Positions 1 to 3,000 of a stretch of 5,051 nt of DNA are shown piece after piece. The stretch is from a virus (taxonomy: Duplodnaviria > Heunggongvirae > Uroviricota > Caudoviricetes): IMG/VR virus record IMGVR_UViG_2548876948_000012, one strand, 5' to 3'. Each line of letters starts with the position of its first letter. Within the stretch, counting starts at the first letter, position 1. A program made the position numbers.

Positions 1-3000
1 AAATCGATACTGGAAAAACTCTAACTCGGTGGCCAGTTTTTGTTGACCACTTCACACTTCAAAACGACGACGAGAGGAGCAGAAACAGAACGATAAACTT
101 AAGATTCAAAAACTCGCCTTAAAGCCCCGCAGTTACTGGATTAAACAAGCCCAACAAGCCGTAAACGCCTTCATCAGAGAAAGAGACCGCGACTTACCAT
201 GTATCTCGTGCGGAACGCTCACGTCTGCTCAGTGGGATGCCGGACATTACCGGACAACTGCTGCGGCACCTCAACTCCGATTTGATGAACGCAATATTCA
301 CAAGCAATGCGTGGTGTGCAACCAGCACAAAAGCGGAAATCTCGTTCCGTATCGCGTCGAACTGATTAGCCGCATCGGGCAGGAAGCAGTAGAGGAAATC
401 GAATCAAACCATAACCGCTATCGCTGGACTGTCGAAGAGTGCAGGGCCATCAAGGCGGAGTATCAACAGAAACTTAAAAAACTGCGAAACAGCAGAAGTG
501 AGGTTGCATGAATATCTACGAAAGAATTGATGGCAGCAAATACCGAAATATTTGGGTAGTTGGCGATCTGCACGGATGCTACACGAACCTGATGAAAAAA
601 CTGGAGACGATAGGATTCGACACCAAAAAAGATCTGCTTATCTCGGTGGGCGATTTGGTTGATCGCGGTACAGAGAACGTAGAATGCCTGGAATTAATCA
701 CATTCCCCTGGTTCAGAGCTGTACGTGGAAACCATGAGCAAATGATGATTGATGGCTTATCAGAGCGTGGAAACGTCAATCACTGGCTGCTTAATGGCGG
801 TGGCTGGTTCTTTAATCTCGATTACGACAAAGAAATTCTGGCTAAAGCTCTTGCCCATAAAGCAGATGAACTTCCGTTAATCATCGAACTGGTGAGTAAA
901 GGAAAAAAATATGTCATCTGCCACGCCGATTATCCTTGTGATAAATACGAGTTTGGAAAGCCAGTTGATCATCAGCAGGTAATCTGGAACCGCGAACGAA
1001 TCAGCAACTCACAAGACGGGATCGTGAAAGAAATCAAAGGCGCGGACACGTTCATCTTTGGTCATACGCCAGCAGTGAAACCACTCAAATTTGCCAACCA
1101 GATGTATATCGATACTGGCGCAGTGTTCTGCGGAAACCTCACATTGATTCAGGTACAGGGAGAAGGCGCATGAGACTCGAAAGCGTAGCTAAATTTCATT
1201 CGCCAAAAAGCCCGATGATGAGCGACTCACTACTGGCCACAGTTTATTGGTTTTCGTAACTGAGTCATTTTATTATTTTATTGCAACTTTTAATCTTTTA
1301 TAGTGCGAAATAAATGGAGCTGGCATTCATTTCGCACTTTATGTTTTTGTTGGACTTATGTTATTTTGATTGAATTCAATTCAGTTAAAAAAAGAAGGTG
1401 ATTGCTCCATTTATAAATGAATAGTCATCCCCTGTCTTGAATTCTGATGTTACTTTATTAAATGCTAGTGTGAAGGCTACAGGTGCATACCCAATTGTTG
1501 CGCCAACTTGATATTCATCAACAGTTTTGTTTAGCGATACTGTTGTTTGTTTCGTCTGTATTGTTTTTCCTTCGAGAGTATAGTTGCGATTGACATCTCG
1601 TCTTTCCATACCTGCAAAAATCTTGTATTTGAATCCGCTTGTATCGGACATATGCATTAAACCACGGGGAGCCAGCAGACCAAAGCCATTATCCGAATTG
1701 AAGGTTTTATCATTACCAATGGCAATGGTTGCGCCATATGCTACATATTGAAATAAGTTTCCAGTAACAGCAGAAACTTCAGGGTATAATCCAACATTAG
1801 CACCTAAAATATCCATACTTGGTGTCATGGATAGCATCCCTTTTACAGTATAACCGTAGCGATTCTCTATTTGATCATCCCATGCATGATATTTTTCTGC
1901 CCCAATAATCTCATGAGCTTTATTTTGTACTTTCTGACCGCCTGCGTCGGGGCCAACAACACCTATGTCAGTACCTAATCGATAGCGAATCCAGTCATTC
2001 GCAAGGGAGTTCCATTCAATACCAGTGTGAGTGTATGCACTAAAAGCTCTGTCTCCAGTTACAGCTGTGTTGTGTCTTTTATTACTGCCTGATGGAGAGT
2101 AAATATCTTGCGCAATATGGAGAGATAATTGGCTCGAGTCTGAGATATCGTGGCTATATCCCAGAAATAAGCCTTGTGAGTAATCATCTCTGTTTTCATG
2201 TTTATTGCCATAAATATCATTAAGTATTGGTTGAAACTTCCCTGCATCATCATTTGCTAATGATAATGCAAGGCTGTTCGCGATAGCTGAACACGTGGTA
2301 AATGACAGAGCAATAAAGACGCCAGCGATGACACTTTTTTTCATATGTTATTGTCTTCCTTTTTTTTGAATGGTGCGCGTATTTTACATACATGAGTTTG
2401 TAATACAAGGTGCGTAATCAATATGATGTTTTATAATTGCGTGAGACAATTGATTTATTCGTTTTTTATTGCGGTTTTTATTATCTTTTAATGTAACGGT
2501 GTTTTTATTAAGTGTGTTTGCGTGGTGTTTTATGTTTTTTATAATTTTTATTTTATTAAATTTAAAAGCATTAGTAATGGCTATTCTATATAGCAATATA
2601 AGAACTGTTAAAAAAAAAGGGGGGCAATTACAGGTAGTTATGGATGATGAGTGAAACAGATATTGGAGAACCGGGGAATGAATGATGTCTGAGTCTTATA
2701 TATCAGAACTCCTTCGCTGTCGCTGGGGGCTCCTGTGCTTATGTCGTTTCCCCGATTCGGTTTTGAACGATTACCGAATGTTGAAGAATTATGCCAAAAT
2801 ATAGAAAGGATTTACTGCATGAATACCCAATATTTACAGTATGTTCGTGAGCAACTTATGGCAGCTACTGCTGACTTGAACGGAGCAACGAAAGGCCAGC
2901 TCGAAGCCTGGCAGGAGCATGCACAATTTGATACTGGTACATACAAACGAAAGAAGCCGCGCATTCTGGATGTGGTAACTGGCAAGATGATTACGCTGGA

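What the first reader, a model, noticed from the sequence alone, without database searches (positions are those of the whole stretch)
2345..2734. AT-rich, T-tract-repeated divergent control region with an A9G6 homopolymer tract
The lpxR upstream region has strikingly low GC and recurring T5-T6 tracts, features of curved DNA that is silenced by H-NS and counter-silenced by virulence regulators. A run of nine A followed by six G (2610-2624) is a potential slipped-strand mispairing site that could alter promoter spacing.
Basis: partly seen in the sequence, partly recalled or inferred. Interest (0 to 1): 0.4.

Follow-up and report, generated by a model that had tools for sequence, protein, structure and literature searches.

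The report
Known lpxR control region, variable G-tract
This is the AT-rich upstream region of the prophage-borne lipid A deacylase gene lpxR, already known to be switched on by the virulence regulators Ler and Pch; its homopolymer run does vary in length between E. coli lineages, but nothing shows that this does more than reflect ordinary slippage.

Summary
Window 2345-2667 has 27.6% GC, six T runs of 5 or more, and A9G6 at exactly 2610-2624.

The segment is the 5' flank of a 1.4-kb low-GC lpxR cassette (about 1241-2667). The cassette sits between a truncated lambda-type Q fragment and ylcG-Q in a lambdoid prophage. Classical phage 434 has the same layout. The finding's last 53 bases are ylcG coding sequence, not control DNA.

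Published work already places this gene (Z0955/ECs0814) in the Ler/Pch regulon, and H-NS represses the Salmonella orthologue. The silencing reading is therefore plausible but not new.

The curvature claim is not supported. T-tract number matches composition (p=0.12), there is no helical phasing (p=0.59), and modelled curvature is ordinary.

The tract is polymorphic. The usual form is A-C-A7-G7, with G6 to G9 and A6 to A8 variants that recur on a single SNP background. The uninterrupted A9 is absent from 620 complete genomes and 50 viral contigs. Other non-coding homopolymers nearby vary almost as much. The tract lies upstream of the best promoter candidate, not in its spacer.

Verdict: a known locus plus a probably neutral slippage hotspot. 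Low interest.

The parts
1170..1241 (+). 5' fragment of a lambda-type Q antiterminator gene (pseudogene). It marks the left junction of the lpxR cassette.
   Evidence: 97% identical to the first 67 nt of lambda Q in many lambdoid phages. Annotated 'antitermination protein, missing C-terminus' in RefSeq and as an N-terminal Q fragment in phage 434.
1241..2667 (.). lpxR cassette (moron): a 1.43-kb low-GC insert (35.7% GC) carrying lpxR and its upstream region.
   Evidence: Left: lambda Q homology ends at 1240-1245. Right: homology to rusA-ylcG-Q prophages that lack lpxR begins at 2668. Composition.
1385..2344 (-). lpxR, the outer-membrane lipid A 3'-O-deacylase (319 aa).
   Evidence: Pfam PF09982 LpxR, E=6.8e-40, full length. 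Same coordinates as the RefSeq CDS annotated 'lipid A deacylase LpxR family protein' (WP_000750155.1; sequence not compared).
2345..2667 (-). AT-rich lpxR upstream (promoter and leader) region: 27.6% GC, TpA density 0.118. Probable H-NS target and site of Ler/Pch counter-silencing.
   Evidence: Composition. Regulation from the literature. No Rfam family. The lpxR-sense RNA is less structured than shuffles, z=+1.
2355..2367 (-). lpxR ribosome-binding site (GGAAG) preceded on the mRNA by A8 (T8 on the + strand).
   Evidence: Read from the sequence. The phage 434 record annotates the RBS here. T8 is found in 45 of 49 viral contigs and T7 in 4.
2381..2408 (-). Proximal promoter candidate for lpxR: -35 TTGTAT, 16-nt spacer, -10 TAAAAT. 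It would give a leader of about 30 nt.
   Evidence: My own weight-matrix scan, score 5.8. Below the threshold of the tool's scan. Prediction only.
2518..2545 (+). + strand promoter-like site facing ylcG-Q: -35 TTGCGT, 16-nt spacer, perfect -10 TATAAT. The polymorphic T6 run (2535-2540) lies in its spacer. Probably a spurious or silenced promoter of the kind common in AT-rich DNA.
   Evidence: for the site. T5/T6/T7 alleles counted. Prediction only.
2583..2611 (-). Best-scoring lpxR-sense promoter candidate: -35 TTAACA, 17-nt spacer, -10 TAGAAT, 10/12. The window-specific A at 2611 changes the usual GTAACA to TTAACA.
   Evidence: Tool scan and weight-matrix scan, 8.9 in the window allele against 6.6 in the consensus allele. 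Prediction only. The total number of promoter-like sites is not above chance.
2610..2624 (.). Compound homopolymer tract, A9G6 in this window. Elsewhere it is A-C-A(6-8)-G(6-9), most often A-C-A7-G7.
   Evidence: presence. (alleles read from sequence). (60 of 620 genomes sampled). (no exact A9G6 among 620). (50 viral contigs). (recurrence on one SNP haplotype).
2598..2627 (-). Weak promoter candidate whose spacer contains the tract: -35 TTGCCC, spacer 18 in this allele and 19 with G7, -10 TCTTAT, 8/12.
   Evidence: score 5.4 (3.7 in the consensus allele). This is the only configuration in which tract length would change -35/-10 spacing.
2668..2681 (+). First bases of the conserved prophage backbone. 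In prophages without lpxR these bases are the 3' end of rusA.
   Evidence: 86% identity over 283 nt with a rusA-ylcG-Q prophage, starting at 2668 (annotation).
2682..2804 (+). ylcG-family small ORF (40 aa; alternative start at 2685). Its first 53 nt lie inside the finding.
   Evidence: RefSeq 'YlcG family protein' at the equivalent position in all copies fetched. 'YlcG-like protein' in phage 434. No Pfam hit.
2819..3508 (+). Q antiterminator, described as Q82-like in the phage 434 record.
   Evidence: Pfam PF06323, E=1.7e-91. RefSeq and phage 434 start at the MNT... codon, 2819.

Best explanation
Window 2345-2667 is the upstream regulatory DNA of lpxR. The gene is carried as a low-GC cassette in the late-regulatory region of a phage-434-like lambdoid prophage, inserted between a decapitated lambda-type Q gene and ylcG-Q.

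**Likely mechanism.**
- At 72% A+T in a host genome of about 50% GC, the segment is the kind of DNA that H-NS coats and silences. This step is inferred.
- When the LEE virulence programme is on, Pch induces Ler, and Ler (an H-NS antagonist) relieves the silencing. lpxR is then transcribed together with the type III secretion genes and lipid A is 3'-O-deacylated. Ler/Pch dependence is published for this gene. Direct binding to this DNA was not checked here.
- ylcG and Q are not controlled from this DNA. They are read by antiterminated transcription from the phage early-right promoter, which crosses the cassette antisense to lpxR. This is inferred from lambdoid phage organisation.

**The tract.** The A/G run is a replication-slippage hotspot. 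Its length has changed repeatedly during E. coli diversification (G6 to G9, A6 to A8), largely in step with lineage. It behaves like the other non-coding homopolymers of this prophage. Most likely it is neutral or at most mildly modulatory, and it is not an on/off switch.
For: **Identity and architecture.**
- LpxR, Q, NinG and phosphatase domains.
- Identical gene order with annotation in phage 434, 99.3% identity over 1174-2700.
- Cassette boundaries at about 1241 and 2667/2668.
- 492 genomes match only from about 2668 rightwards at 80-90% identity; those listed carry rusA-ylcG-Q there without lpxR.

**Composition.** 27.6% GC, with a minimum of 23.5%. TpA density is 0.118 against 0.064 for the whole window.

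**Regulation, from the literature.**
- Z0955 is activated 5-fold by Ler in EDL933. ECs0814 and E2348C_0684 are also Ler-regulated (PMC3891560).
- lpxR sits in the LEE modulon (PMC9263587).
- lpxR 'requires both Pch and Ler' (review PMC6393859 citing Ogawa 2018).
- lpxR co-occurs with the LEE in bovine and human isolates (PMC6724679).
- Salmonella lpxR is H-NS-repressed and bound by HilD (PMC5122947).

**The tract.**
- An even-step sample of 60 of the 620 genomes carrying the region gave 41 A7G7, 7 one base longer, 8 one shorter, 1 two longer, 1 two shorter and 2 with a SNP.
- 50 IMG/VR contigs gave G7 25, G6 15, G8 5, A6G6 4 and A8G6 1.
- G6, G7, G8 and G9 all occur on one SNP haplotype of 24 sequences.
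- Match length and identity indicate G6 in all six O55:H7 genomes, all four O145 genomes and most O157 'Z' strains listed (two members of that match class read directly). G7 holds in most O157:H7, and G8 in O111:H8 and O121.
- Controls in the same contigs: the T8 terminator tail at 3573-3580 is non-modal in 27%, and the T6 run at 2535-2540 in 33%. The G run is non-modal in 50%. Homopolymers inside coding sequence are nearly invariant.
Against: - No H-NS or Ler occupancy data for this DNA could be retrieved. Ogawa 2018 and Abe 2008 are not held, and the supplements of the Pch/H-NS ChIP paper do not mention the locus.
- The transcription start site is unknown, so the position of the tract relative to the real promoter is unknown.
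- The G run is the most polymorphic homopolymer in the locus, so a modulatory role cannot be excluded.
- Predicted curvature, helical phasing and the H-NS nucleation motif are all negative. H-NS binding would therefore rest on AT content alone.
Confidence: 0.72

Rival explanations
1. The A/G tract is a functional contingency element. Slippage changes either the -35/-10 spacing of a promoter that spans it, or the helical register between an upstream regulator site and the lpxR promoter. Lineages or subpopulations would then differ heritably in LpxR level and in lipid A deacylation.
For: - Length is polymorphic and recurs on one SNP background.
- It is the most variable homopolymer in the locus.
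- A weak lpxR-sense candidate (-35 TTGCCC 2627-2622, -10 TCTTAT 2603-2598) has the tract in its spacer: 18 nt with G6 and 19 with G7.
- The tract abuts the -35 of the best candidate, in the UP-element position.
Against: - The candidate with the tract in its spacer matches only 8/12 and ranks fifth.
- Promoter-like sites in the region are not above chance.
- G6 to G9 is short for classical phase variation.
- Alleles largely follow lineages rather than varying within clones.
- Other non-coding homopolymers vary nearly as much.
- No expression data link length to output.
Confidence: 0.13
2. The segment is a true bidirectional control region. It also holds a promoter that drives ylcG-Q independently of the phage early operon, so H-NS and Ler would also govern phage late-gene activation.
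For: - A + strand site with a perfect -10: TTGCGT, 16 nt, TATAAT at 2518-2545.
- A second 9/12 site at 2398-2427.
- The genes are divergent.
Against: - + strand sites are no more frequent than in shuffles: 2 found against 3.2 +/- 1.9.
- In prophages without the cassette, ylcG-Q follow rusA directly, with overlapping stop and start codons and no promoter space. Q is therefore normally read from upstream.
- A constitutive Q promoter would be lethal in an intact lysogen such as phage 434.
Confidence: 0.1
3. The tract-length differences are homopolymer errors of long-read assemblies, not biology.
For: - Many complete genomes come from PacBio or Nanopore data, which are error-prone in G/C runs.
- Singletons differ from their lineage, for example O121 RM8352 (G9) against three O121 genomes with G8.
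Against: - Alleles are consistent within lineages and across laboratories: O55:H7 6 of 6 G6 by match length and identity, O121:H19 3 of 4 G8; O111:H8 read as G8 in one strain and one base longer than A7G7 in two more.
- The same allele spectrum appears in 50 IMG/VR contigs derived from separate genome projects.
- Homopolymers of equal length inside coding sequence are nearly invariant in the same contigs.
Confidence: 0.05

Closest known systems
lpxR (Z0955 / ECs0814 / E2348C_0684) of EHEC and EPEC on prophage CP-933K/Sp3, a member of the Ler/Pch regulon (Ogawa et al. 2018; Bingle et al. 2014; Abe et al. 2008)
   Same: Same gene and the same flanking DNA. 620 of 5426 complete E. coli genomes carry this intergenic region at 95-100% identity, including O157:H7, O26, O111, O103, O121, O145, O55:H7 and EPEC O127:H6.
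   Different: This window has a private allele of the tract (uninterrupted A9 with G6), which strengthens a predicted -35. Otherwise it differs only by SNPs.
Phage 434 late-regulatory region (OL657226.1)
   Same: Identical order: ninG, ninI phosphatase, Q' fragment, lpxR on the - strand, ylcG, Q82-like Q, membrane protein, TciB. 99.3% identity over 1174-2700.
   Different: Phage 434 has A-C-A7-G6. It lacks an 8-bp tandem duplication (ATTTTATT, 1267-1274) and differs at 2495, 2567 and 2611.
Salmonella lpxR (STM1328/SL1263), H-NS-repressed and HilD-activated
   Same: An orthologous enzyme, reported as about 74% identical (PMC6863877). The regulatory logic is the same: a T3SS master regulator switches on an AT-rich, H-NS-silenced lipid A deacylase gene.
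   Different: It is chromosomal rather than prophage-borne, and the activator differs (HilD rather than Ler/Pch). The only non-E. coli locus fetched (Citrobacter, 73% aa identity) shows no detectable DNA similarity upstream of the gene.
Homopolymer-spacer phase-variable promoters (Neisseria porA and opc, Bordetella fim). Recalled from general knowledge, not checked here.
   Same: A G/C homopolymer next to or within promoter-like elements, with length differing among isolates.
   Different: - The tracts here are shorter (6-9).
- There is no demonstrated promoter around the tract.
- Alleles follow lineages.
- Variability is comparable to neighbouring neutral homopolymers.

Membership tests
Xenogeneically silenced (H-NS) and Ler/Pch counter-silenced promoter region | A+T content well above the host genome average over 100 bp or more | tested here: met
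   72.4% A+T over 323 bp, with a peak of 76.5%. The host chromosome is about 50.4-50.6% GC (PMC3891560).
Xenogeneically silenced (H-NS) and Ler/Pch counter-silenced promoter region | Horizontally acquired DNA | tested here: met
   A discrete cassette, 1241-2667, inside a prophage. It is absent from related rusA-ylcG-Q prophages.
Xenogeneically silenced (H-NS) and Ler/Pch counter-silenced promoter region | H-NS occupancy and derepression in an hns mutant | not testable with these tools
   No ChIP data for the locus could be found. Only the Salmonella orthologue is reported as H-NS-repressed.
Xenogeneically silenced (H-NS) and Ler/Pch counter-silenced promoter region | Activation dependent on Ler and/or Pch | not testable with these tools
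   Published for this gene. Not re-tested here.
Xenogeneically silenced (H-NS) and Ler/Pch counter-silenced promoter region | Intrinsic curvature, phased A-tracts or a high-affinity H-NS motif (supportive, not obligatory) | tested here: not met
   Phasing p=0.59. No TCGATAAATT within 2 mismatches. End-to-end ratio 0.872 against 0.847 +/- 0.094 in shuffles (wedge parameters recalled from memory).
Slipped-strand-mispairing phase-variable promoter (contingency locus) | Homopolymer or short repeat whose length differs among isolates, with recurrent changes | tested here: met
   G6 to G9 and A6 to A8, with four G lengths on one SNP haplotype.
Slipped-strand-mispairing phase-variable promoter (contingency locus) | Tract lies in the -35/-10 spacer, between an activator site and the promoter, or in the reading frame | tested here: inconclusive
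   Outside the spacer of the best candidates, and inside the spacer only of a weak 8/12 candidate. The start site is unknown. The 61-aa ORF crossing the tract is frameshifted in most strains and has no family.
Slipped-strand-mispairing phase-variable promoter (contingency locus) | Variability clearly above that of comparable neutral repeats | tested here: inconclusive
   50% non-modal, against 27% for the T8 terminator tail and 33% for T6 in the same contigs.
Slipped-strand-mispairing phase-variable promoter (contingency locus) | Within-clone switching and expression that tracks tract length | not testable with these tools
   This needs read pileups and reporter assays.
Phage moron | Extra gene inserted between conserved phage genes, with deviant composition and in the opposite orientation | tested here: met
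   35.7% GC against about 46% in the flanks. On the - strand within the + strand nin-Q operon. Absent from related phages.
Phage moron | Own promoter and terminator | tested here: inconclusive
   Promoter candidates only. A hairpin at 1299-1341 lies downstream of lpxR, but the scan calls no terminator.

The most novel reading that the evidence does not exclude
The A/G tract upstream of lpxR is an evolutionary tuning knob. Slippage, together with the private C-to-A change that creates TTAACA in this window, resets the basal or Ler-induced level of lipid A 3'-O-deacylation. EHEC and EPEC lineages with G6, G7, G8 or G9 would then differ heritably in TLR4 stimulation. This would be a rare case of repeat-mediated control of a virulence gene in E. 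coli.
Probability: 0.1. Interest if true: 0.55.

Novelty: already known. Interest (0 to 1): 0.22.

Why it matters
LpxR removes an acyl chain from lipid A and dampens TLR4 signalling. It has also been proposed as an EHEC vaccine antigen (PMC6863877). How strongly each lineage expresses it therefore matters for host response and for vaccine coverage.

The regulatory logic (AT-rich foreign DNA, H-NS, Ler/Pch) is already established for this gene, so this window adds little to it.

Two points are added here:
- The same cassette sits in the classical laboratory phage 434.
- The upstream homopolymer differs between major STEC/EPEC lineages. This gives a cheap, testable candidate explanation should lineages prove to differ in LpxR output.

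Tried and rejected
- **Curvature as the basis for H-NS binding.** Rejected. A wedge-model path, AA/TT Fourier phasing and a search for the H-NS motif were all negative.
- **Excess of T tracts.** Rejected as compositional.
- **A structured RNA or known sRNA in the region.** No Rfam hit within 2345-2734. The lpxR-sense RNA folds worse than shuffles. A 38-nt, 71% inverted repeat (2346-2383 / 2595-2632) pairs C6U9 with the A8-GGAAG ribosome-binding site. It is driven by homopolymer complementarity and needs a start site upstream of the tract, so it was not pursued.
- **Small ORFs in the region** (61 aa on the + strand at 2469-2654; 70 aa on the - strand at 2384-2596). No family match reaches threshold (the 70-aa ORF has only a sub-threshold PF02315 hit, E=0.0056, 17.2 bits against a cut-off of 27), and the first is frameshifted by the common G7 allele.
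- **Homology of the upstream region to other lpxR loci.** The single locus retrieved (Citrobacter, 73% aa identity) shares no upstream DNA similarity.
- **Transposon-like ends of the cassette.** Only a 12-nt direct repeat with one mismatch was found (1214-1225 / 2643-2654, spacing 1429). It is close to what chance gives and does not sit exactly at the junctions.
- **Primary papers.** Ogawa 2018 and Abe 2008 are not held. The ChIP supplements lack the locus.
- **MicF pairing.** A 9-bp duplex lies at 2243-2255 inside the CDS, but its energy is not better than shuffles (p=0.28). The MicF sequence was recalled from memory.
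Full report
**What is in the sequence**

The window is the late-regulatory region of a lambdoid prophage. Its parts, in order:
- the 3' end of ninG (to 511);
- a NinI-type Ser/Thr phosphatase (508-1173);
- a 72-nt 5' fragment of a lambda-type Q gene (1170-1241);
- lpxR on the opposite strand (1385-2344; Pfam LpxR, 6.8e-40);
- an AT-rich gap;
- a ylcG-family ORF (2682/2685-2804);
- a Q antiterminator (2819-3508; PF06323, 1.7e-91).

GC is 31.5% over 2345-2734 and 27.6% over 2345-2667, with a minimum of 23.5%. Six T runs of 5 or more are present. That number is what the base composition predicts: dinucleotide shuffles give 3.9 +/- 1.4, p=0.12.

**Where the segment belongs**

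Prophages that lack lpxR have rusA-ylcG-Q. They align with the window only from 2668 rightwards, at 86% identity over 283 nt. On the other side, homology to the first 67 nt of lambda Q ends at 1240-1245. Window 1241-2667 is therefore a discrete 1.43-kb cassette of 35.7% GC, containing lpxR and its upstream region, dropped into the nin-Q operon in the opposite orientation. This is a typical moron.

Classical phage 434 (OL657226.1) has the identical arrangement at 99.3% identity. Its authors annotated the Q fragment, the lipid A deacylase, the YlcG-like ORF and a Q82-like Q. The intergenic region occurs in 620 of 5426 complete E. coli genomes, always once and always chromosomal. These include O157:H7, O55:H7, O26, O103, O111, O121, O145 and EPEC O127:H6. 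No complete genome is identical to the window. The best matches reach 99.8% from base 62 onwards.

**The silencing interpretation**

The gene is the one known as Z0955 (EDL933, prophage OI#36), ECs0814 (Sakai, Sp3) and E2348C_0684 (EPEC). Published findings:
- It is activated about 5-fold by Ler in EDL933 and is Ler-regulated in Sakai and EPEC (PMC3891560).
- It falls in the LEE modulon in an independent-component analysis (PMC9263587).
- It is described as requiring both Pch and Ler (PMC6393859 citing Ogawa et al. 2018).
- It drops together with the LEE in yhaO and yhaJ mutants (PMC4699771).
- The Salmonella orthologue is reported as H-NS-repressed and is bound by HilD in vitro (PMC5122947).

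I could not retrieve direct H-NS or Ler occupancy data for this DNA.

The specific claim of curved DNA fails three tests:
- AA/TT dinucleotides show no 10-11 bp periodicity (p=0.59).
- A wedge-model trajectory gives an end-to-end ratio of 0.872, against 0.847 +/- 0.094 for shuffles. The strongest predicted bend in the window is near 3485, not here (parameters recalled from memory).
- The H-NS high-affinity motif is absent within 2 mismatches.

What the region does have is very high A+T content and a TpA density of 0.118, against 0.064 for the window.

**The homopolymer tract**

Sequences read directly from 18 E. coli genomes and phage 434 show A-C-A7 followed by G6, G7, G8 or G9, plus A-C-A8-G6 in O45:H2 and A-C-A6-G6 in a pig isolate.

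An even-step sample of 60 of the 620 genomes gave:

| Allele relative to A7G7 | Genomes |
|---|---|
| A7G7 | 41 |
| one base longer | 7 |
| one base shorter | 8 |
| two bases longer | 1 |
| two bases shorter | 1 |
| single SNP | 2 |

Fifty IMG/VR viral contigs, an independent set, gave:

| Allele | Contigs |
|---|---|
| G7 | 25 |
| G6 | 15 |
| G8 | 5 |
| A6G6 | 4 |
| A8G6 | 1 |

No genome or contig has the window's uninterrupted A9. All others have C at 2611.

On the commonest SNP haplotype of the intergenic region (24 sequences) all four G lengths occur, so slippage has recurred. That set includes genomes I picked for differing lengths, so its proportions are not representative.

The alleles also follow lineages. 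Match length and identity indicate G6 in all six O55:H7 genomes, all four O145 genomes and most UK O157 'Z' strains listed. I checked the sequence for two members of that match class. G7 holds in most O157:H7 and G8 in three of four O121. For O111:H8, one strain reads G8 and two more are one base longer than A7G7. This pattern argues against assembly error and also against rapid on/off switching.

As a control I measured every other homopolymer in the same 50 contigs:

| Homopolymer | Non-modal |
|---|---|
| G run of the tract | 50% |
| T6 at 2535-2540 | 33% |
| T8 tail of the terminator downstream of Q, 3573-3580 | 27% |
| T8 at the lpxR ribosome-binding site | 8% |
| runs inside coding sequence | nearly invariant |

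The G run is the most variable, but it belongs to a general pattern of drifting non-coding homopolymers.

**Position relative to promoters**

The start site is unknown, and promoter-like sites are not enriched: 2 found against 3.2 +/- 1.9 in shuffles.
- The best lpxR-sense candidate is -35 TTAACA (2611-2606), 17 nt, -10 TAGAAT (2588-2583). The tract lies immediately upstream of its -35, not in the spacer. The window's private A at 2611 converts the usual GTAACA into TTAACA, raising the score from 6.6 to 8.9.
- A proximal candidate (2408-2381) would put the tract about 240 bp upstream.
- Only one weak 8/12 candidate (TTGCCC at 2627-2622, TCTTAT at 2603-2598) has the tract in its spacer: 18 nt with G6 and 19 with G7.

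No RNA family, significant RNA structure or conserved small ORF was found in the region.

**Conclusion**

The finding describes real features of a known regulatory region. The best explanation is the AT-rich, presumably H-NS-silenced and Ler/Pch-activated upstream region of a prophage-borne lpxR cassette. ylcG-Q are read through from the phage early operon rather than from a divergent promoter. The A/G tract is best read as a slippage hotspot that has drifted among lineages.

A tuning role for the tract is not excluded (about 10-13%) and is easy to test with isogenic reporter fusions. Novelty is low. The incremental points are the presence of the cassette in phage 434, the lineage-structured tract alleles and the private A9 allele of this window.

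Noticed in passing
window 1170-1241: A decapitated lambda-type Q gene (its first ~70 nt, 97% identical to lambda) is followed 1.6 kb later by a complete Q82-like Q. This is a mosaic junction where one antiterminator module replaced another, with lpxR in between.
   Followed up: partly
window 1267-1274: An 8-bp tandem duplication (ATTTTATT) relative to phage 434, in the spacer downstream of lpxR. The RefSeq prophage copies appear to share it, judging from identical CDS offsets.
   Followed up: partly
window 1299-1341: A strong hairpin (18-nt arms, 89% complementary, 7-nt loop) followed by TTTATGTTTTT on the + strand. It lies between the Q fragment and the 3' end of lpxR. It may be a terminator for unmodified early-right transcripts, for lpxR, or for both. 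The terminator scan did not call it.
   Followed up: no
window 1214-1225 and 2643-2654: A 12-nt direct repeat with one mismatch (GATGATGAGCGA / GATGATGAGTGA), spaced 1429 bp apart, almost exactly the cassette length. It could be a trace of the recombination that inserted the cassette, or it could be chance (about 3 such pairs expected).
   Followed up: no
window 2346-2383 and 2595-2632: A 38-nt inverted repeat (71% complementary). On an lpxR-sense RNA that started upstream of the tract, it would pair C6U9 with the A8-GGAAG ribosome-binding site. It appears in the predicted MFE and centroid, but the fold is not better than shuffles.
   Followed up: partly
window 2535-2540 and 2518-2545: A polymorphic T run (T5, T6 or T7 among strains) lies in the spacer of a + strand promoter-like site with a perfect TATAAT that faces ylcG-Q.
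   Followed up: partly
window 3573-3580: The T8 tail of the terminator downstream of Q (annotated in phage 434) is also length-polymorphic: T8 in 29, T7 in 10 and T9 in 1 of 40 viral contigs.
   Followed up: partly
window 3484-3497: By transfer from the phage 434 annotation, this is a CII-binding site and the -35 of paQ on the - strand. It coincides with the strongest predicted curvature in the window. Antisense transcripts from paQ would run through Q and ylcG towards lpxR.
   Followed up: no
window 4691-4895: A full-length but sub-threshold match to the Rfam sRNA family STnc100 (41.5 bits against a gathering score of 47, E=1e-6) on the + strand. It overlaps a 52-aa ORF (4737-4895) and ends in a hairpin with a T8 tail.
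   Followed up: no
window 3678-4436 and 4522-4680: A 252-aa multi-pass membrane protein with no Pfam family, and a 52-aa DUF3927 protein (TciB in the phage 434 record). They sit between the terminator downstream of Q and the next phage genes and look like further moron-type cargo.
   Followed up: no
window 1-61: The best E. coli matches to the whole window all start at base 62. This suggests a mosaic breakpoint inside ninG.
   Followed up: no
window 2243-2255: The 5' end of MicF (sequence recalled from memory) can form a 9-bp duplex with the lpxR coding region, reminiscent of the MicF-lpxR regulation reported in Salmonella. The energy is not better than for shuffled MicF (p=0.28).
   Followed up: partly
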